Shown piece after piece: positions 57,351 to 64,000 of a stretch of DNA of 64,000 bases. Below the pieces are notes generated by a model. That model searched no databases, had not been told where the DNA came from, and was given only the letters and a program-made list of their open reading frames with translations. The stretch lies in the NCBI GenBank assembly GCA_964593885.1, contig CAZQKK010000001.1, positions 425,929 through 489,928 of the forward strand, given 5' to 3'. The position numbers and the translations under genes are program-made. Source of the stretch: an uncultured Candidatus Saccharibacteria bacterium. GTDB lineage: Bacteria > Patescibacteriota > UBA1384 > CAILIB01. Numbering within the stretch: the stretch's first letter is position 1; each line of letters starts with the position of its first letter.

Positions 57351-57896
57351 TTAGGAGCCCGATACGCCGGCAAATTCCGGCTGAGAAGTGCTGCCTCGCA
57401 GTTGTTGCTGCGGGGGCTGCGCCTTTACCAGTGCCCGACTGGCGTTAAAGGTGCAGCTGAGGACGACGTTGCCCTTACCGTCCACCGTGAATGCATGTCC
57501 CTCGATGTCGTTTGCGTTTCGTTTGAATGCGAAGTAGCAGTTCTCCGCTGACCGGTTGTGGCCAGGGGGAGTGAATGGGCCGAAGTTGATCCTCGGCAGC
57601 AGATCGTGCTGCTTGATCTCGTCAAGGTTTCCGACCATGGTGGTCAAGAGGCGCTTGAGAGTAGCCTCGTCCTTGACGTTGCCCTGGATCTGAATGGACC
57701 CTTCGAGTGCGCGATTGCCGTGCATGAGAACCTGGGAGTGGCCAAAGCCATCTGGGTTCTCGCTGCTTTCGTACCTGCGAACTTTATCAGTGCTGATGTT
57801 GACTTCCTTTCGGAAAGCCAGACGACGGCCCGTGCCGTGTGATGCCTGTACCACTTGTGATGGCACAATGAAACTTGTGGTTTCTTTTTTACACAT
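57351..57896 (-). CDS. hypothetical cytoplasmic protein (181 aa)
   Basis: ORF with GGGGG SD-like sequence 10 nt upstream of the ATG and its own terminator; no recognised motif. Confidence 0.5.
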   Translation of the reverse strand: MCKKETTSFIVPSQVVQASHGTGRRLAFRKEVNISTDKVRRYESSENPDGFGHSQVLMHGNRALEGSIQIQGNVKDEATLKRLLTTMVGNLDEIKQHDLLPRINFGPFTPPGHNRSAENCYFAFKRNANDIEGHAFTVDGKGNVVLSCTFNASRALVKAQPPQQQLRGSTSQPEFAGVSGS

Positions 57897-58022
57897 GCGT
57901 TGTTAACCCCCTCATCCATGTGAGGTACTAGTTTTTCCTTCTCAGATGACACCAAAAAAGTAAAACTTGCTCCCAAATCTACCAGATTGAGTAAGGTGTG
58001 TAAATATGCTAGGCTAAAAAGC

Positions 58023-59201
58023 ATGAAAAACACTCCTTCAATCCAACGAAAAAACCTAGACCAGAGCCGAGTTCGGCTTACAGTCCCGGTTTTCAATGCT
58101 ACCTACCAGCCAGCTTTCCAGCGTGAGCTTGAAACCATCGCCAAAGACATTCGTATTGAAGGCTTTAGGCAGGGGAAGGCTCCCCTGAGCCAGGTTCTGG
58201 CCCAGGTAGGAAAGCAGCGGATTGAAGCAGGAGCTCTGGATAGGGCAATCAACACCGCCTACGTGGAGGCACTTGAGGCGGAGAAGATTCTCCCGGTTGC
58301 CAACCCAGAGATCACCCTGGATAGTTACGTCGCTCCGGGCGAAGATGCAGATGATGAGGTGGTGGTTGCAACTTTTACCGCAGAGATGGATGTGCTCCCA
58401 GAGGTAAACCTTAAGCACTACGATAGAATTAAGGTGAAGCAGCCGAAAGCTGTTGAGGTGACAGACAAGGACCTCCAGGAAGTGATTGACTACCTCCGCA
58501 AGCAGCAAGCATCTCTCAAAGAGCTAGAGCCTACCGTAAAGGCAGCCAAGGGCATGTGGGCAGACATTGGCTTTAAGGGGATGATTGATGGTGTTGCGCG
58601 TGAGGAAATGAACAGTGACCACCACCCATTGGTACTTGGCGAAGGTCAGCTGATCCCAGGTTTTGAAGACCAGATTTTTGGCATGGTGAAAGACGAAGAG
58701 AAAACCTTCAAGATTACCTTCCCTAAGGATTACCACGCTGCAGGACTTGCTGGAAAAGAGGCTGAGTTCACCGTGAAGATCCACGAGCTGCGAGACGTAG
58801 TCCTCCCAGTGGTAGACGGGGAGTTCTCCAAGAAGTTTGGTCACGAGAACGTTGAGAAGCTTGAGATGGCAATTAAGGAGAACCTGGTACTAGAGCGTGA
58901 GCAGGAGCGAAAACTGAAGCTTGAAGAGCTAGTCATGGAAGAGCTCCTCAAAGGTACCAAGTTTGAAGTGCCAGTTTCTCTCGTTACTGGGGAAGAGCAG
59001 CGTCTGCGTGAGCAGGCCAGCAAGCAGCTTGGGGGAGTGCCACTTTCAGATAAGCTTGCGGAGCAGCTCCACGAACAGGCGGTTAAGAATGTAAGAATTG
59101 GCATTGCTCTTGGTAAAGTTGTTGAGCTTGAGAAGATTGAAGAGCGTGAGACTGCAAGTAGAACCGCCCTTGATAGGTTAGTAGCAATTGCAACTAGGTA
59201 G
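58023..59201 (+). CDS. tig: trigger factor
   Basis: ribosome-binding N-domain (GFRQGKAP motif), PPIase-like and C-terminal domains; ATG at 58023 within ORF 57987..59201. Confidence 0.85.
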   Translation: MKNTPSIQRKNLDQSRVRLTVPVFNATYQPAFQRELETIAKDIRIEGFRQGKAPLSQVLAQVGKQRIEAGALDRAINTAYVEALEAEKILPVANPEITLDSYVAPGEDADDEVVVATFTAEMDVLPEVNLKHYDRIKVKQPKAVEVTDKDLQEVIDYLRKQQASLKELEPTVKAAKGMWADIGFKGMIDGVAREEMNSDHHPLVLGEGQLIPGFEDQIFGMVKDEEKTFKITFPKDYHAAGLAGKEAEFTVKIHELRDVVLPVVDGEFSKKFGHENVEKLEMAIKENLVLEREQERKLKLEELVMEELLKGTKFEVPVSLVTGEEQRLREQASKQLGGVPLSDKLAEQLHEQAVKNVRIGIALGKVVELEKIEERETASRTALDRLVAIATR

Positions 59202-59878: not shown

Positions 59879-61042
59879 CTAGTTACCCATCTGATTGAGT
59901 AGTGGGCAGAGCACCTGGTTGATGTAGTCCTGAGCCCAGTAGTTGTCCTTGGGCATGCCACCTGAGTTGAATACCACGGATATCAGCTGTCCGTTTGCAC
60001 GGTACATGATGGCTGCATTGCAACCTTCAAGGCTGCCACCGTGCTGGAGGGTGTAGCCACCGTTTGACTCAACAGTCACGCTGAACCCAAGTCCAGTGTA
60101 GTTGCGAGACCCTCTGGCGTATGCCGGAGGAATCACCACTTGAGCCTGGAGTTCAGCACTTATCAGCTTTGGCAGCGCCTGCTGGAATTGGATGAGTGCG
60201 CGAGCACTCATCACCCATCCACCAGATGAGTCCATCTCCCCAAGGGTATAACACCCATAGGGGAAAGGTACTCGCTTTAGGTTGTCGCCCGGGTAGAGTG
60301 ACATGCCCACCCTGCCTGGCAGATCCCAGTAGCGGGTTTCTCCTTCACGAAGGTTCTTGCTGTGGCCAACGTAGGCCTCAGTAGCGGAGATCCCAGCCGG
60401 AGCCAGAATTGCCGCCCGGACGTAGTCCTCGTAGCCCCTGCCGGAGACTTTCTCGATGATCTTTCCAAGGATACGAAATCCAATGTTGGAGTACGAGAAG
60501 CGGGTTCCAGGTGTTGAGACGAGGGATTCTTTCTCAAAGGCAAGTAGTACTTGGATATCCTTTGGGATCGGAAGTGGGGTGCCATACCGTTTTGAGGTTG
60601 TGACCTGTTCGTTGAGGAACGTGTCACTTCCCCAACCACCAGTGTGCTGGAGTAGGTGCCTCACCGTAACGGTGCGCATCTCTGCTTGCCTTGGCTTGAT
60701 TGGGTGCTCGCGGTCCTTGTTGAGGATATCGAGGACGAAATCGTCAAGATTCAGCTTGCCATCTCGCACGAGGCAGAGAACGGCGGTGGTGGTATACGTC
60801 TTGGAAACGCTGGCCACCCGGTTTGGAGTGGTGGCGAGGAAGGGATCTCCCTTCTCGTTTCGTACCCCAAATGGGACGGTGACGGTATCAGAACCGTTGG
60901 TAACGATGAGCGCTCCGCCATGTGCGCCCTTACTCTGGGCGTACTGGCGGAAGGATGATTCGATGGCCGATGTCTCAGCCGGGGAGAACCCCGTGTGTGG
61001 GAGACCGACCATTGCAATGAACGCAAGGGCAGATGTAATCAT
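59879..61042 (-). CDS. secreted serine hydrolase of the beta-lactamase/class C PBP family
   Basis: signal peptide; SxxK motif (VASVSKTYTT), YxN-like and HGG-like (LQHGGSLEG) regions. Confidence 0.8.
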   Translation of the reverse strand: MITSALAFIAMVGLPHTGFSPAETSAIESSFRQYAQSKGAHGGALIVTNGSDTVTVPFGVRNEKGDPFLATTPNRVASVSKTYTTTAVLCLVRDGKLNLDDFVLDILNKDREHPIKPRQAEMRTVTVRHLLQHTGGWGSDTFLNEQVTTSKRYGTPLPIPKDIQVLLAFEKESLVSTPGTRFSYSNIGFRILGKIIEKVSGRGYEDYVRAAILAPAGISATEAYVGHSKNLREGETRYWDLPGRVGMSLYPGDNLKRVPFPYGCYTLGEMDSSGGWVMSARALIQFQQALPKLISAELQAQVVIPPAYARGSRNYTGLGFSVTVESNGGYTLQHGGSLEGCNAAIMYRANGQLISVVFNSGGMPKDNYWAQDYINQVLCPLLNQMGN

Positions 61043-61155
61043 AAGAACCTCAGATTGTCAGGCCTCTTTCGCGGGGTGCGGAAAAGGGAGCAAAATCTGC
61101 GGTGATAGTAGGGTATTTGCCCCCAAAAAGCAAGCAGGAGTACACTAAGTACATG

Positions 61156-61668
61156 AAAGCTACAGGAACGTACAGTACCGAGAGTTTGCGTAAGGTGGTT
61201 ACCGTTACCATCTGCGTATTTGCCATGACAACAATGTTTGCTCACACCTTCCCAACACTCATTGGTTTTTCTTCCTTGAGAAAGCTTACCGATGCAAGCC
61301 TGCAAACCCTGGGAATTCACGAAAAGTGGAGGATGTTTACCTCAAAAGACACGTCAGCAGTACCACTCAAAATGGAGCTCATCTACACCAGTGGAAAGAC
61401 ACAAACGGTGGTGCTACGAGCAGAAAGGGTGAGCTTTTCGAGGAGTGCTGAGAATCGTTTCAGTGAAACGGTCCTCTGGAATACGTTCTCGCCTCTTACG
61501 GGGTCTTTCCTTGAGGCAAGCTGCAAACGGTACACGAGTACTAATGATCGGCTGGTAAGTGCATCGCTCAACCAGGCAACCATCATGCTTCCCTCATCTC
61601 TTACCGCAAGTGAAAGCAAGATGCCTCTGCAGTACAAGCAGGTTAGGAACCTCCAATGTCCCAAATAG
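61156..61668 (+). CDS. hypothetical exported protein, candidate SdpA-like partner of the downstream HTTM protein
   Basis: ATG at 61156 within ORF 61102..61668; N-terminal hydrophobic segment VVTVTICVFAMTTMFAHT; overlaps the HTTM-1 gene start by 13 nt; SdpA-like call is by genomic context only. Confidence 0.45.
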   Translation, partial: KATGTYSTESLRKVVTVTICVFAMTTMFAHTFPTLIGFSSLRKLTDASLQTLGIHEKWRMFTSKDTSAVPLKMELIYTSGKTQTVVLRAERVSFSRSAENRFSETVLWNTFSPLTGSFLEASCKRYTSTNDRLVSASLNQATIMLPSSLTASESKMPLQYKQVRNLQCPK

Positions 61669-62576
61669 TCGAAAACATTCGTGGTTCACTGGCAAAGCTG
61701 CTCAACGAGGCATTCTTTTCGCCTTTTAAGGAAAACCAACTTAGGCTTTTCAGGGGAGCGGTTGGAGTTGCCCTGATTATTACCTCACTCTCTTGGGTCC
61801 AATCTTTCAGATGGTTTTTCGCCCCAGACGGGTACGTTCCGCTTTCGCTGGCGCCAAGCCTTGGGAAGTACACGGTAAGCTGGCTCCACCTTTTCAACTA
61901 CGAGGCGCTCTCGGGTTTGCCTTTCCTCTATGCTGGCTACCTCCTCATGCTAGTTGCTGCAGGTTTCCTCGTTATTGGGAAGTACGAGAAATATGCAGCT
62001 CCTGTAGCCTACATTCTCTTACTTAGCTTCCTGGGACGAAACCCAGCATTGAGCTATGGCGGCACCGATGTGCTCCAGTTCTTGCTCCTAGCGGTAGTTC
62101 TCCTCAGCCTCCCCGGCAAGAAGCAGGCTGAAAAGTGGCCGATTGTCCTGGTTCAGTTCCAGTTTGCCGTTCTCTACCTATCGGCAGCAATCAGTAAGAT
62201 GCAGGTTCCCGAGTGGTTTAACGGCACCAAGATGTTCTTTGGGATGTCAGATCCAACCTTTTCCTACATCAACCCAAACTTTCTCCTAAGCGTACCGGCA
62301 CTCCTTGCCTTCATCACGTGGTACGGGTTCATGTCAGAGATTGGCTTCACCTTCCTCATTTGGTCAAAGGGTACGAGGAGGTTTGCACTGGCTATGGTAG
62401 TACTCCTGCACGTTGGGATTGCGCTGACCATGAACGTACACCTATTCAGTGAGGTGATGCTCCTAGGCTTTACCGCACTCTTAACTGAAAGTGAATCAAC
62501 GTGGCTACTTGAGCGACTTCGCGCAGCGAAAACCGGTGTAGTTTCTGTTGTACGAAGGTCCAAGCGCAAGGTCTAG
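61656..62576 (+). CDS. HTTM-domain (vitamin-K-dependent gamma-carboxylase-like / SdpB-like) polytopic membrane protein, copy 1
   Basis: 306 aa, about 8 TM helices; conserved C-terminal block FTFLIWSKGTRRFALAMVVLLHVGIALTMNVHLFSEVML; paralogous to the partial ORF at 63521..64000. Confidence 0.75.
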   Translation: MSQIVENIRGSLAKLLNEAFFSPFKENQLRLFRGAVGVALIITSLSWVQSFRWFFAPDGYVPLSLAPSLGKYTVSWLHLFNYEALSGLPFLYAGYLLMLVAAGFLVIGKYEKYAAPVAYILLLSFLGRNPALSYGGTDVLQFLLLAVVLLSLPGKKQAEKWPIVLVQFQFAVLYLSAAISKMQVPEWFNGTKMFFGMSDPTFSYINPNFLLSVPALLAFITWYGFMSEIGFTFLIWSKGTRRFALAMVVLLHVGIALTMNVHLFSEVMLLGFTALLTESESTWLLERLRAAKTGVVSVVRRSKRKV

Positions 62577-63524
62577 CGAGTAGATTCCTGAGTTTTCGTT
62601 GTTTGCCCAGGCGCCACCCCGCGTAACCGCCTTGAATGGTGAGGTTGGGGTAATGAGATTGTTGTATTCCCAAGACCAACCTGGGTTGAGTGATATTTTG
62701 CCAATGCCGTTTACTGAGGTAAGGGTGCTATCAGGGAGCTGGCTACCATCCATCTTGCCATAGTCTTTCACCTCGTTGTATTCAATCCAGCGGGTCTTTG
62801 TGATGGGGAAAGTTGCCTTGATGCCGTTACCGGTAAGGCCGTCAGAGTCAATTTCAAACGTTTCTCCAGTACCGGTTTTCTCTTCAAAAATGTAGGGATC
62901 TGACATCCACTCCCAGAGGTTTCCAGTGAGGTCCCAGAGTACCTCGCCGTTACTGAGGACGGTAGTGCGTGAGAGGCTGCGGCTTGGTTCACCCGGAACG
63001 TAGGGGGTAACCCAGTTTCCGGCGGTGCCTGTGTAGCTGAGGTTGCTCCTCAGTGAGCATGAGGCGTTTTCTGGGGTATCAAGACCAGAAGAGAGGTTGC
63101 ACTTGGCAAGAGATGGTGAGACATCAGGAACAGCCTGTACAAACTTTTGCCCAGCTGTGTTGCCATTGGTGAGCTGGGGGCCGGGTTCGCTGCTGAGGTC
63201 ATTGATGGGAGTTTTCAAGATGTCAGCCGCAATGGTCATCCACTCACTGCTACTGAGGAGGTGGTAGCCAGTCCCAAGGTCTGCGCAGGCTTGTTTCGCC
63301 CCAGGTGAGGTTTGGAAATTCCAGGGGAAATCGCCCAGTTTGCTGACGGGGAGACCTGAAGGACTCTTTTGAGCTTCAGTTCGCATAACGCAGAAGCCTC
63401 CTCCTGGCACCTCAATGTAGCCCTCTGGGCATCCGGTAGTATCTGGTTGAGGCCTCGTTGCCAACCACCCAGCCGTCACAGCAACTAGGATGAGGAAGAG
63501 GAGGTTGCTTTGCTTGCCAGTCAT
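62505..63524 (-). CDS. membrane-anchored formylglycine-generating-enzyme (FGE/SUMF1) family protein
   Basis: N-terminal signal-anchor; FGE-sulfatase domain hallmarks GNLWEWMSDPY, RGGAWANNENSG, GFRCAK; ATG overlaps the stop of the upstream HTTM gene (ATGA). Confidence 0.8.
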   Translation of the reverse strand: MTGKQSNLLFLILVAVTAGWLATRPQPDTTGCPEGYIEVPGGGFCVMRTEAQKSPSGLPVSKLGDFPWNFQTSPGAKQACADLGTGYHLLSSSEWMTIAADILKTPINDLSSEPGPQLTNGNTAGQKFVQAVPDVSPSLAKCNLSSGLDTPENASCSLRSNLSYTGTAGNWVTPYVPGEPSRSLSRTTVLSNGEVLWDLTGNLWEWMSDPYIFEEKTGTGETFEIDSDGLTGNGIKATFPITKTRWIEYNEVKDYGKMDGSQLPDSTLTSVNGIGKISLNPGWSWEYNNLITPTSPFKAVTRGGAWANNENSGIYSLDLALGPSYNRNYTGFRCAKSLK

Positions 63525-64000
63525 GCTCGGCGCAGTTTCCGCTGGGCTTTAGCGCCTTTGTAAACTCGCTTGAGGAATGCAGCTGCAGCTACGATGTCAT
63601 CCTCCAAGAGGAAGATGGTAGCAATGGAGAGCATGGTCTCAGCAAAGTAGCTGACGTTGAGGGTAATGAGGCTACTACCGTGGATGATAAGTAAGCCGAA
63701 TAGGGCAAACCTTCGGGTTTCCTTGAACCAAACGAAGAATGGGAAAGATACCTCTAGGAGGAGCGATCCCCAGGTCATGAGCCCCATAATGAGCGGGAAG
63801 GCGGCAAGCCAGGTGAAGTTCATGGTGGCGTACTCGAAGTTGAGGACTTTCCCAGCTTCAGTTCCTTGGACAAACCAGGCATCTGCTCGCACCTTGGCAA
63901 AGCCTGCAAAGAGGTAAACGAAGGCAAAGTTGAGCTGAATGAGCCTTGCCGACCATCCGGCAACCATGCCTGCTTTGTCGGGTTGGGGGAGCATTAAGTA
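63521..64000 (-). CDS. HTTM-domain membrane protein, copy 2 (3' part only; N-terminus beyond window end)
   Basis: FPFFVWFKETRRFALFGLLIIHGSSLITLNVSYFAETML aligns with HTTM copy 1; reading frame stays open upstream of the listed Met to the window edge. Confidence 0.7.
   Translation of the reverse strand, partial: YLMLPQPDKAGMVAGWSARLIQLNFAFVYLFAGFAKVRADAWFVQGTEAGKVLNFEYATMNFTWLAAFPLIMGLMTWGSLLLEVSFPFFVWFKETRRFALFGLLIIHGSSLITLNVSYFAETMLSIATIFLLEDDIVAAAAFLKRVYKGAKAQRKLRRA

What the first reader, a model, noticed from the sequence alone, without database searches (positions are those of the whole stretch)
61156..62576. SdpA-like exported protein overlapping HTTM copy 1 (sdpAB-like pair without an obvious sdpC)
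The 61156..61668 ORF has an N-terminal signal-anchor, and its 3' end overlaps the HTTM gene start (61656) by 13 nt, implying co-translation. That is the arrangement of SdpA-SdpB antimicrobial-peptide maturation pairs. The downstream third gene (an SdpC-like toxin with an immunity gene) is missing; instead the pair converges on the FGE gene. The partner could be an SdpA-type accessory factor or itself a substrate.
Basis: inference. Interest (0 to 1): 0.7.

Follow-up and report, generated by a model that had tools for sequence, protein, structure and literature searches.

The report
Divergent DUF5819-like partner of HTTM enzyme
The 171-residue membrane-anchored protein is a real, conserved gene that most likely is the small accessory subunit of the neighbouring HTTM membrane enzyme (a bacterial relative of the vitamin K-dependent carboxylase). 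It is a very divergent cousin of the DUF5819/SdpA proteins that precede HTTM genes across bacteria, and it is not part of an SdpC toxin system.

Summary
An ORF (ATG at 61153, not 61156; stop 61668; 171 aa) has one N-terminal membrane helix and overlaps the HTTM gene (61656..62576) by 13 nt. It is under purifying selection. In 8 related metagenome loci a homologue lies directly upstream of an HTTM gene.

It matches no Pfam or NCBIfam model, including SdpA and DUF5819. Profile-profile comparison links it in three steps:
- To a paralogue upstream of the second HTTM copy (97.7%).
- To a Ralstonia-type partner family (91-92%).
- Through that family, to DUF5819 (89-95%). Similarity to SdpA is limited to one motif (47%).

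DUF5819 and SdpA genes sit directly upstream of HTTM genes elsewhere (77 of 80 DUF5819 loci). No SdpC-like ORF is present, and HTTM1 falls far below the SdpB cut-off. It is therefore an SdpAB-like architecture but not an Sdp toxin system.

The best reading is a two-subunit, split carboxylase-like membrane enzyme, present twice in the cluster. The cluster also carries a conserved beta-lactamase-fold hydrolase and an FGE-like exported protein. The substrate and the chemistry are unknown.

Verdict: new variant of a known kind, of moderate interest.

The parts
61153..61668 (+). Partner A gene: a 171-aa type II membrane protein, a divergent member of the DUF5819/SdpA-like superfamily, proposed to be the accessory subunit of HTTM1.
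   Evidence: ORF and translation. No Pfam or NCBIfam hit. Purifying selection. Family alignment. hhalign links.
61195..61251 (+). Single N-terminal transmembrane helix (residues 15-33), preceded by a net-positive N-terminus (N-in, C-out).
   Evidence: Kyte-Doolittle maximum 1.73 over residues 15-33. The AF2 model has a helix at 9-32 with pLDDT of about 90.
61309..61338 (+). Signature motif L53-G54-I-H-E-K-W59-R-M61-F62, the only segment shared by partners A and B, the Ralstonia-type family, DUF5819 (QNWxLFAPxP) and SdpA (PQGWGFFSKxP).
   Evidence: G54 and W59 are invariant, and L53 and M61 are conserved in at least 90% of sequences. Family alignments. The motif has low pLDDT (residues 56-63) in the monomer model. 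Inference: it corresponds to the DUF5819 Leu59/Phe60 residues that contact the predicted quinone pocket in the preprint 10.64898/2026.08.19.745780.
61656..61668 (+). 13-nt overlap between the partner A stop and the HTTM1 start (translational coupling).
   Evidence: Overlaps of 10-16 nt in L001, L002, L004, L006 and L008.
61656..62576 (+). HTTM1: a 306-aa polytopic membrane protein of the HTTM family, proposed catalytic subunit.
   Evidence: Pfam PF05090, 39.1 bits against a cut-off of 27.7. TIGR04033 SdpB family, 52.6 bits against a cut-off of 178.4. The family profile matches human gamma-glutamyl carboxylase at E=5.5e-8.
62196..62198 (+). Codon for Lys181 of HTTM1, which aligns with the second Lys of the 'AGVKKL' motif of human GGCX.
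   Evidence: K181 is invariant among the 12 HTTM sequences of this lineage and conserved in at least 90% of the 16-sequence set that also includes Ralstonia and B. thuringiensis. Alignment to GGCX. That this Lys is the catalytic base Lys218 rests on my own knowledge of the GGCX literature.
59879..61042 (-). Divergently transcribed exported beta-lactamase-fold serine hydrolase (SxxK motif 'SVSK', YxN motif 'YSN'), a conserved neighbour of the module.
   Evidence: Pfam PF00144, E=1.2e-45. AmpH/class C-like in NCBIfam, all below cut-off. Present in 6 of 7 loci of this lineage and 3 of 3 Ralstonia-type loci, absent from 80 ordinary DUF5819 loci. Also next to HTTM in L111, L135 and L138.
61043..61152 (.). 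Divergent intergenic region with a nearly invariant block of about 60 nt (about 61088-61146) just upstream of partner A, and a small hairpin (about 61063-61087).
   Evidence: Alignment of five lineages. Compensatory changes in the hairpin. No Rfam match and no sigma-70 consensus.
62505..63524 (-). Signal-anchored protein of 339 aa with weak similarity to the FGE-sulfatase domain. It lacks the FGE catalytic Cys pair. It is coupled to HTTM2 and convergent with HTTM1.
   Evidence: Pfam PF03781, 24.7 bits over 17 residues. PDB profile hit to FGE only at E=0.16. 63% identical to the copy in distant L007. The C-terminus reads 'RGGAWANNENSG...GFRCAKSLK'; the absence of the Cys pair is judged against my recollection of the FGE sequence.
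62505..62576 (.). 72-nt convergent overlap of the 3' ends of HTTM1 and the FGE-like gene.
   Evidence: Overlaps of 63-87 nt are conserved in six lineages.
63521..64000 (-). 3' part of HTTM2, the second HTTM paralogue. The gene and its own partner B lie beyond the window end. It overlaps the FGE-like start by 4 nt.
   Evidence: Pfam HTTM, E=2.7e-11. In L001 the full gene is 330 aa and is preceded by the 179-aa partner B.

Best explanation
The 171-aa protein is the small, membrane-anchored, probably non-catalytic subunit of a two-protein HTTM enzyme. It has one N-terminal transmembrane helix and an alpha/beta domain of about 135 residues outside the membrane, with two conserved cysteines. It is made in fixed proportion with HTTM1 through a 13-nt overlap.

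By analogy with DUF5819-HTTM pairs, its helix would pack against the HTTM helix bundle. Its external domain, through the conserved LGI-x3-W-x-M-F motif, would cap or gate the outward-facing active site. That site retains the Lys that aligns with the catalytic-base position of vitamin K-dependent carboxylase. Together the two proteins would form a 'split' version of that carboxylase.

The cluster holds two such paralogous pairs: partner A-HTTM1, and partner B-HTTM2 (partner B lies outside the window). It also holds an exported beta-lactamase-fold serine hydrolase and an FGE-like exported protein. It therefore most likely modifies or processes an exported protein or envelope component. It is not an SdpC-type toxin system.

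Shown: the gene is real; the coupling and adjacency are conserved; the module is duplicated; the partner is remotely related to the Ralstonia-type family and to DUF5819; the Lys is conserved.
Inferred: physical complex formation, the gating role, and the nature of the substrate and chemistry.
For: 1. Real, constrained gene. Codon-position differences are 31/29/81 against L001, and invariant residues persist across relatives at 23-74% identity.
2. In 8 related loci a homologue lies directly upstream of an HTTM gene (L001, L002, L004, L006, L007 twice, L008 twice, L103). Where the two genes overlap, they do so by 10-16 nt.
3. The protein upstream of HTTM2 is a paralogue: hhalign 96-97.7%, E=2e-9 to 1e-12.
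4. A+B against the Ralstonia-type partners that precede HTTM: 91%, E=1e-6. With the transmembrane segment removed: 92%, E=6.5e-7.
5. A+B+Ralstonia-type against a 69-sequence DUF5819 alignment: 94.7%, E=5.8e-8 over 126 columns. Without the transmembrane segment: 89%, E=2.3e-6. Reversed-sequence controls give at most 2%.
6. For scale, bona fide SdpA against DUF5819 gives only 75%.
7. Of 80 DUF5819 loci, 77 have an HTTM ORF directly downstream, mostly overlapping by 4-14 nt. Annotated plasmid loci show SdpA>SdpB and DUF5819>HTTM.
8. The HTTM profile matches human GGCX at E=5.5e-8, and K181 aligns with the second Lys of the AGVKKL motif.
9. A 2026 preprint predicts by AlphaFold 3 a confident DUF5819:HTTM complex that resembles whole GGCX. 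In it the DUF5819 motif residues touch the quinone pocket. The preprint also notes that MloH is the fused form.
Against: - No direct HMM hit to DUF5819 or SdpA, even at E<=1. A full HMMER scan of 1.84 billion representatives found only the small family itself.
- The link to DUF5819 is transitive. A+B without the transmembrane segment scores only 4% against DUF5819. Partner B alone scores about 1%.
- The motif lacks the 'AP-x-P' prolines of DUF5819.
- No complex prediction could be run here.
- Whether this organism has any quinone is unknown. If it is a Patescibacterium, as one relative's locus tag hints, a quinone-dependent mechanism would be doubtful.
Confidence: 0.68

Rival explanations
1. 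It is a true SdpAB-type maturation pair for a secreted toxic or antimicrobial peptide whose precursor is unlinked or unrecognisable. One candidate is the fast-evolving 165-169-aa secreted protein next to the second pair.
For: - The gene order is the same as sdpA-sdpB.
- HTTM1's best NCBIfam hit is the SdpB family.
- A signal-peptide protein lies upstream of partner B. It is only 21-30% identical between lineages whose HTTM1 is about 60% identical, and rapid divergence of this kind is typical of effectors.
Against: - No SdpA HMM hit.
- hhalign against SdpA reaches 47% over the motif only.
- HTTM1 scores 52.6 bits against the SdpB cut-off of 178.4.
- No SdpC-like ORF at E<=10 in the window or six related loci.
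- No called neighbour gene carries an SdpI, SdpR or other immunity/regulator Pfam family, although SdpI and SdpR were not searched for directly.
- The variable secreted protein lacks the long C-terminal hydrophobic domain of SdpC and YitM (PMC6818787).
- The cluster sits among housekeeping genes in all lineages, not in an accessory island.
Confidence: 0.14
2. The 171-aa protein is itself the substrate of HTTM1 (for example modified on Glu or Asp residues) rather than a subunit.
For: - It is tightly co-expressed with HTTM1.
- Its extracytoplasmic domain has conserved acidic and polar residues in the 'SRSAENRF-x-E' segment.
Against: - The acidic residues of that segment are not conserved in paralogue B or in the Ralstonia-type family.
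- A partner gene is paired one-to-one with each HTTM gene in every locus, which is the pattern expected of subunits.
- The homologous DUF5819 is predicted to form a large, confident interface with HTTM (3,518 square angstroms).
Confidence: 0.06
3. It is a lineage-specific membrane protein unrelated to DUF5819 or SdpA. It happens to be co-transcribed with HTTM, and the profile similarities reflect only a shared membrane anchor and a short motif.
For: - No direct HMM hits.
- A+B without the transmembrane segment scores 4% against DUF5819.
- There are no significant structural neighbours in the PDB.
Against: - The link to the Ralstonia-type family survives removal of the transmembrane segment (92%), as does the combined profile's link to DUF5819 (89%, 121 columns).
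- Reversed controls give at most 2%.
- Position, size, topology and motif location are the same in all four families.
- Adjacency to HTTM persists down to 23% identity.
Confidence: 0.12

Closest known systems
DUF5819 family (Pfam PF19136) partners of HTTM proteins
   Same: [quoted passage not shown]
- A Trp-x-[Leu/Met]-Phe motif shortly after the helix.
- The gene lies directly upstream of, and usually overlaps, an HTTM gene (77 of 80 loci).
- Profile-profile similarity of 83-95%.
   Different: - No direct HMM match.
- The 'QNW-x-LFAP-x-P' signature is reduced to 'W-R-M-F-T-S-K'.
- Two conserved Cys residues (C124, C169) are present in partners A and B.
- No DCC/DUF393 thiol-disulfide oxidoreductase gene is nearby, against 12 of 80 DUF5819 loci.
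- A beta-lactamase-fold gene and an FGE-like gene are present instead.
Ralstonia-type partner family (unnamed; for example AXW64003.1, a hypothetical protein of R. solanacearum)
   Same: - It is the closest detectable relative outside the lineage (91-92%).
- It has the motif 'WLGLNAEW-x-MF'.
- It lies directly upstream of a 295-aa HTTM gene.
- A beta-lactamase-fold gene is adjacent.
   Different: - In Ralstonia the order is bla>partner>HTTM on one strand, followed by a DCC gene or HpcH/TylF genes.
- There is a single module and no FGE-like gene.
- The C-terminal Cys is absent.
SdpA-SdpB of the sdpABC cannibalism operon (and its paralogue yitPOM) of Bacillus subtilis
   Same: - A small membrane-anchored protein overlaps the start of an HTTM-type polytopic membrane protein.
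- The Trp-containing motif sits at the same position.
   Different: - No SdpA HMM match.
- HTTM1 is far below the SdpB cut-off.
- No SdpC or YitM precursor is present, and no SdpI or SdpR family appears among the called neighbour genes.
- The cluster is chromosomal, in a core-gene context, and is duplicated.
[quoted passage not shown]
   Same: - The HTTM membrane domain is homologous (E=5.5e-8), and a Lys aligns with the AGVKKL motif.
- The preprint proposes that a DUF5819-type partner fills the place of a GGCX transmembrane helix and clamp domain, and says that MloH is the fused form.
   Different: - Here the enzyme would be split into two polypeptides.
- The substrate, the cofactor and any carboxylation activity are untested.

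Membership tests
SdpA (Pfam PF17418 / NCBIfam TIGR04034) | Matches the family HMM above its cut-off. | tested here: not met
   No Pfam or NCBIfam hit at E<=1 for the 171-aa protein. A genuine SdpA from B. thuringiensis scores 144 bits in the same search.
SdpA (Pfam PF17418 / NCBIfam TIGR04034) | Profile-profile similarity to aligned SdpA proteins. | tested here: inconclusive
   hhalign of A+B against six SdpA sequences: 47%, E=2e-4, 35 columns covering the motif only. The score drops to 3.5% without the transmembrane segment.
SdpA (Pfam PF17418 / NCBIfam TIGR04034) | The gene lies directly upstream of, and is coupled to, an SdpB/HTTM gene. | tested here: met
   13-nt overlap with HTTM1, conserved in relatives.
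sdpABC-type toxin system | A linked SdpC-family toxin precursor (signal peptide plus C-terminal hydrophobic domain). | tested here: not met
   An HMM built from five SdpC proteins finds nothing at E<=10 among six-frame ORFs of the window and six related loci. The positive controls score 1e-68 to 4e-88.
sdpABC-type toxin system | Linked SdpI immunity and SdpR regulator genes. | not tested
   No dedicated SdpI or SdpR search was run. The called neighbour genes in L001-L006 carry no such Pfam families.
SdpB (NCBIfam TIGR04033), applied to HTTM1 | Score above the family cut-off. | tested here: not met
   52.6 bits against a cut-off of 178.4. Only residues 161-274 match.
DUF5819 (Pfam PF19136) | Matches the family HMM. 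| tested here: not met
   No Pfam hit at E<=1, and none at E<=10 for the L001 homologues.
DUF5819 (Pfam PF19136) | Profile-profile similarity to aligned DUF5819 proteins. | tested here: inconclusive
   A+B: 83%, E=9e-6 over 124 columns. A+B+Ralstonia-type: 94.7%, E=5.8e-8. Without the transmembrane segment: 4% and 89% respectively. Reversed controls: at most 1%.
DUF5819 (Pfam PF19136) | N-terminal transmembrane helix, then an external domain carrying the Q-N-W-x-L-F-A-P-x-P motif. | tested here: inconclusive
   The topology and the W-x-M-F core are present. The Q-N and A-P-x-P positions are not conserved in partner A.
DUF5819 (Pfam PF19136) | Directly upstream of an HTTM gene. | tested here: met
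   For comparison, 77 of 80 DUF5819 loci show this arrangement.
HTTM (Pfam PF05090), applied to HTTM1 | Matches the family HMM above the gathering score. | tested here: met
   39.1 bits against 27.7. The family profile matches human GGCX at E=5.5e-8.
Vitamin K-dependent carboxylase (functional class) | Conserved Lys at the catalytic-base position. | tested here: met
   K181 is invariant among 12 lineage sequences, conserved in at least 90% of the 16-sequence set, and aligns with the second Lys of GGCX 'AGVKKL'.
Vitamin K-dependent carboxylase (functional class) | Quinol-, O2- and CO2-dependent carboxylation of a substrate. | not testable with these tools
   This needs biochemistry. The organism's capacity to make or obtain a quinone cannot be judged from 64 kb.
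Two-subunit partner:HTTM complex | Physical interaction of the partner with the HTTM protein. | not testable with these tools
   Only single chains can be predicted here. The complex is predicted for DUF5819:HTTM in the preprint 10.64898/2026.08.19.745780.

The most novel reading that the evidence does not exclude
The cluster could be a previously unrecognised extracytoplasmic protein- or envelope-modification machine with four kinds of component: two paralogous split carboxylase-like enzymes (partner A:HTTM1 and partner B:HTTM2), a beta-lactamase-fold serine hydrolase, and a catalytically altered FGE-fold protein. Its core triad (hydrolase + partner + HTTM) would be shared between a small-genome, probably Patescibacteria, lineage and Ralstonia and other Proteobacteria. 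If the host lacks quinones, the HTTM chemistry here would be independent of vitamin K.
Probability: 0.2. Interest if true: 0.75.

Novelty: new variant of a known kind. Interest (0 to 1): 0.45.

Why it matters
Bacterial HTTM proteins are widespread relatives of the human vitamin K-dependent carboxylase. Almost none has a known substrate. Their small upstream partners (SdpA, DUF5819) are known only from genetics in the Sdp system and from a structure-prediction preprint.

This locus adds three things:
- A partner family that no Pfam or NCBIfam model matched.
- A bridging Ralstonia-type family that ties the new family to DUF5819.
- A recurrent third component, a beta-lactamase-fold hydrolase. In this lineage there is also a highly conserved FGE-like protein whose gene is coupled to the second HTTM gene.

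Two copies of the module in what appears to be a small, streamlined genome suggest an important envelope function. The locus offers a compact gene set for testing what HTTM enzymes do in bacteria, and whether that activity needs a quinone.

Tried and rejected
- Pfam and NCBIfam scans of the 171-aa protein found nothing relevant. The only hit was a spurious FliE match at E=0.024.
- A word-indexed homologue search found only the protein itself and one 74%-identical relative.
- A full HMMER scan of 1.84 billion representatives found 8 hits, six of them family members. The two long multi-stretch hits (P0014, P0015) were judged spurious matches to hydrophobic segments.
- BLASTP of partner A against partner B was not significant (E=1.4). 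Profiles were needed to show the relationship.
- The afdb50 fold library was not available.
- PDB profile searches with the partner alignment and with DUF5819 found nothing meaningful.
- A genome-contig scan with the HTTM pattern found no relative, so the lineage is not among the GTDB species representatives.
- The SdpC HMM search was negative.
- No DCC/DUF393 gene was found in this lineage.
- The first gene of the Ralstonia-type operon is not related to the FGE-like protein.
- Rfam and the promoter scan found nothing in the conserved intergenic block.
The Patescibacteria assignment rests only on the 'BH11PAT4' locus tag of a relative and is unverified.
- The 'spurious ORF' reading was rejected on the codon-position evidence.
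Full report
**1. What is in the sequence**

The plus-strand ORF runs in frame from 61102 to the stop at 61668. The HTTM gene starts at 61656 and ends at 62576 (306 aa), so the two genes overlap by 13 nt.

HTTM1 passes the Pfam HTTM gathering score (39.1 bits against 27.7). Its best NCBIfam hit is the SdpB family, but at 52.6 bits it is far below that model's cut-off of 178.4.

The 171-aa protein has a single hydrophobic stretch at residues 15-33 after a net-positive N-terminus. This is a signal-anchor topology with the bulk of the protein outside the cell.

The ORF is a real gene. Against the 74%-identical homologue in locus L001, differences fall 31/29/81 by codon position, with 56 synonymous and 44 non-synonymous codon changes.

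**2. The partner is conserved, and a homologue sits next to an HTTM gene in every related locus examined**

Direct family searches fail. There is no Pfam or NCBIfam hit at E<=1, so the SdpA and DUF5819 models do not match. A word-indexed search found only the protein itself and one relative. A full HMMER scan of 1.84 billion representatives found six family members.

Context look-ups show the same cluster in four related metagenome lineages (L001, L002, L004, L006). The gene order is:
- a beta-lactamase-family gene on the minus strand;
- partner A, then HTTM1, on the plus strand;
- on the minus strand, an FGE-like gene, HTTM2, a 179-189-aa protein and a 165-169-aa secreted protein;
- a 1351-1379-aa surface protein (913 aa in L001, where the contig ends).

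More distant relatives keep the pairing in tandem:
- L007: partner > HTTM > partner > HTTM, with a convergent FGE-like gene.
- L008: ClpP > partner > HTTM > partner > HTTM.
- L103: HTTM > partner > HTTM, with a convergent FGE-like gene.

That criterion is not met.

**3. The module is duplicated**

The protein upstream of HTTM2 (partner B) lies just outside the window. It is collinear with partner A: the same anchor, the same 'LGI..W.M' motif and the same two cysteines. BLASTP does not detect the relationship (E=1.4). Profile-profile comparison does: 96.3%, E=2e-9, and 97.7%, E=1.3e-12 over 160 columns.

**4. Relation to known partner families**

A tblastn search of plasmids with HTTM1 brought up annotated loci.
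- In Bacillus, Staphylococcus, Niallia, Tsukamurella and Curtobacterium, an 'SdpA family' gene overlaps an 'SdpB family' gene. In all but Curtobacterium an annotated SdpC-type toxin gene is adjacent, downstream of sdpB except in Tsukamurella, where it lies upstream of sdpA.
- In Kitasatospora, B. mycoides, B. cereus and Virgibacillus, a 'DUF5819 family' gene precedes an HTTM gene. A DCC/DUF393 thiol-disulfide oxidoreductase is encoded next to or fused to the HTTM protein in the three Bacillales loci.
- In Ralstonia, an unannotated 190-aa protein precedes the HTTM gene and follows a beta-lactamase-family gene.

A genome scan with the DUF5819 motif returned 80 loci. In 77 of them an HTTM ORF follows directly, mostly overlapping by 4-14 nt.

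All four partner families share an N-terminal helix followed by a Trp motif:

| Family | Motif |
|---|---|
| SdpA | PQGWGFFSKxP |
| DUF5819 | QNWxLFAPxP |
| Ralstonia-type | LGLNAEWxMFxPDPP |
| This window | LGIHEKWRMF |

hhalign results:

| Comparison | Probability | E-value | Columns |
|---|---|---|---|
| A+B vs Ralstonia-type (8 sequences) | 91% | 1e-6 | 117 |
| Same, transmembrane segment removed | 92% | 6.5e-7 | 98 |
| A+B vs DUF5819 (69 sequences) | 83% | 9e-6 | 124 |
| Same, transmembrane segment removed | 4% | 0.009 | 99 |
| A+B+Ralstonia-type vs DUF5819 | 94.7% | 5.8e-8 | 126 |
| Same, transmembrane segment removed | 89% | 2.3e-6 | 121 |
| A+B vs SdpA | 47% | 2e-4 | 35 (motif only) |
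| SdpA vs DUF5819 (for scale) | 75% | 2.6e-5 | 39 |
| Reversed-sequence controls | at most 2% | 0.03 or higher | - |

The partner is therefore best placed as a divergent branch of the DUF5819/SdpA-like superfamily. The link runs through the Ralstonia-type family. It is not a member of SdpA or DUF5819 as those families are currently defined.

**5. It is not an Sdp toxin system**

An HMM built from five SdpC proteins finds nothing at E<=10 in the window or in six related loci. None of the called neighbour genes carries an SdpI or SdpR family. The cluster lies among housekeeping genes: tpiA, pgk, tig and clpP nearby, and metG, recG, ligA and gatAB further away.

The nearest candidate for a 'substrate-like' gene is the fast-evolving secreted protein next to partner B (21-30% identity between lineages). 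It lacks the long hydrophobic C-terminal domain that characterises SdpC and YitM (PMC6818787).

**6. How it probably works**

The HTTM profile of this lineage matches human gamma-glutamyl carboxylase at E=5.5e-8. Lys181 is invariant in the lineage and aligns with the second Lys of the 'AGVKKL' motif. From my own knowledge of the literature, that residue is the catalytic base Lys218.

A 2026 preprint (10.64898/2026.08.19.745780) reports the following:
- AlphaFold 3 predicts a confident DUF5819:HTTM heterodimer that resembles whole GGCX.
- The DUF5819 helix replaces one GGCX transmembrane helix.
- The DUF5819 domain sits where part of the GGCX clamp sits.
- Residues Leu59 and Phe60 of DUF5819 contact the predicted quinone pocket.
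- MloH, the carboxylase of malonomycin biosynthesis, is the fused form.

By position, that Leu-Phe pair appears to correspond to the 'W-x-L-F' motif, and so to M61-F62 here. This is an inference. It is consistent with the motif being both the most conserved segment and the least confident one (pLDDT below 50 for residues 56-63) in my monomer model.

I therefore propose that the 171-aa protein is the accessory, gating or substrate-recognition subunit of a split carboxylase-like enzyme that acts on the outer face of the membrane. Complex formation, cofactor and substrate are all inferred.

**7. Additional components**

*Beta-lactamase-fold hydrolase.* The serine hydrolase at 59879..61042 is encoded divergently from partner A. 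It carries SxxK and YxN motifs. Such a gene accompanies the module in:
- 6 of 7 loci of this lineage;
- all three Ralstonia-type loci;
- three further HTTM loci from metagenomes (L111, L135, L138).

It is absent from all 80 ordinary DUF5819 loci within 2.5 kb.

*FGE-like protein.* This is the best-conserved gene of the cluster: 63% identity between the window and L007, where the partners are only about 24% identical. Its start overlaps the end of HTTM2 by 4 nt. Its 3' end overlaps the 3' end of HTTM1 by 63-87 nt in six lineages. Its similarity to FGE is limited to a 'GNLWEW' segment. It lacks the catalytic Cys pair of FGE, judged from my recollection of the FGE sequence.

These conserved neighbours suggest that the machine processes or modifies exported proteins or envelope material. 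That is speculation.

**8. Verdict**

It is a new variant of a known kind, namely the partner-HTTM two-component enzymes, whose biochemical role in bacteria is still open. Interest is moderate (0.45).

Noticed in passing
window 63521-64000 (minus strand) and beyond the window end; L001:12369-13906: A second HTTM paralogue (HTTM2) runs off the window end. In relatives it is preceded by its own 179-189-aa partner (partner B), a paralogue of the 171-aa protein. The partner-HTTM module is therefore duplicated. More distant relatives carry the two modules in tandem on one strand.
   Followed up: yes
window 62505-62576; same junction in L001, L002, L004, L006, L007: The 3' ends of HTTM1 and the convergent FGE-like gene overlap by 72 nt, and by 63-87 nt in six lineages. 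The basic C-terminal tail of HTTM1 is encoded antisense to the highly conserved '...YTGFRCAKSLK' end of the FGE-like protein.
   Followed up: partly
window 62505-63524 (minus strand): The FGE-like exported protein is the most conserved gene of the cluster: 63% identical to the copy in L007, where the partners are about 24% identical. Yet it matches the FGE-sulfatase domain only over a segment of about 20 residues, and it appears to lack the catalytic Cys pair. Its start overlaps the HTTM2 stop by 4 nt.
   Followed up: partly
window 59879-61042 (minus strand); L010:1828-3399; L101:4409-6001; L102:4331-5998; L135:5533-6675; L138:723-1754; L111:4181-5344: A beta-lactamase-fold (AmpH/class C-like) serine hydrolase gene lies next to partner-HTTM modules in this lineage, in Ralstonia-type operons and in three other metagenomic HTTM loci. 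It is absent from 80 ordinary DUF5819-HTTM loci. This may be a recurrent three-gene association.
   Followed up: partly
window 61043-61152: The divergent intergenic region holds a nearly invariant block of about 60 nt (about 61088-61146, 'AAAATCTGCGGTGATAGTAGGGTATTTGCCC.AAAAAAGCAAGCAGGAGTACACTA') across five lineages whose proteins are only 36-74% identical. It also holds a small hairpin (about 61063-61087) with compensatory changes. There is no Rfam match and no sigma-70 consensus. It may be a promoter, an operator or a 5' leader.
   Followed up: partly
L001:14026-14535, L002:11542-12051, L004:11503-12000 (outside the window, upstream of partner B): A signal-peptide protein of 165-169 aa with no family match diverges very fast: 21-30% identity between lineages whose HTTM1 is about 60% identical. 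It could be a surface-exposed protein or a substrate of the system.
   Followed up: partly
L002:12151-16290 and L002:16301-16915; L004:12129-16184: Just beyond the cluster lies a surface protein of about 1350-1380 aa with SdrD B-like repeats, followed by a gene with a weak N-terminal methylation (pilin-like) match. The HTTM cluster is thus flanked by cell-surface genes.
   Followed up: no
P0009; L020:2503-3843; L111, L125, L129, L138: In several unrelated bacteria the HTTM domain is fused to a DCC1-like (DUF393) thiol-disulfide oxidoreductase domain, and in others the DCC gene is adjacent. This points to a general redox link for HTTM enzymes. That link is missing from the window's lineage.
   Followed up: partly
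L135:3962-4648: A partner protein upstream of an HTTM gene on a 1.28-Mb metagenome contig matches both the DUF5819 profile (3e-8) and the SdpA profile (3e-4). This supports the view that SdpA and DUF5819 form one superfamily.
   Followed up: no
window 57351-58096 (minus strand): One or two ORFs without family matches lie between pgk and tig. Relatives also have Pfam-less genes of 189-215 aa on the minus strand at this position; whether they are homologous to the window ORFs was not tested.
   Followed up: no
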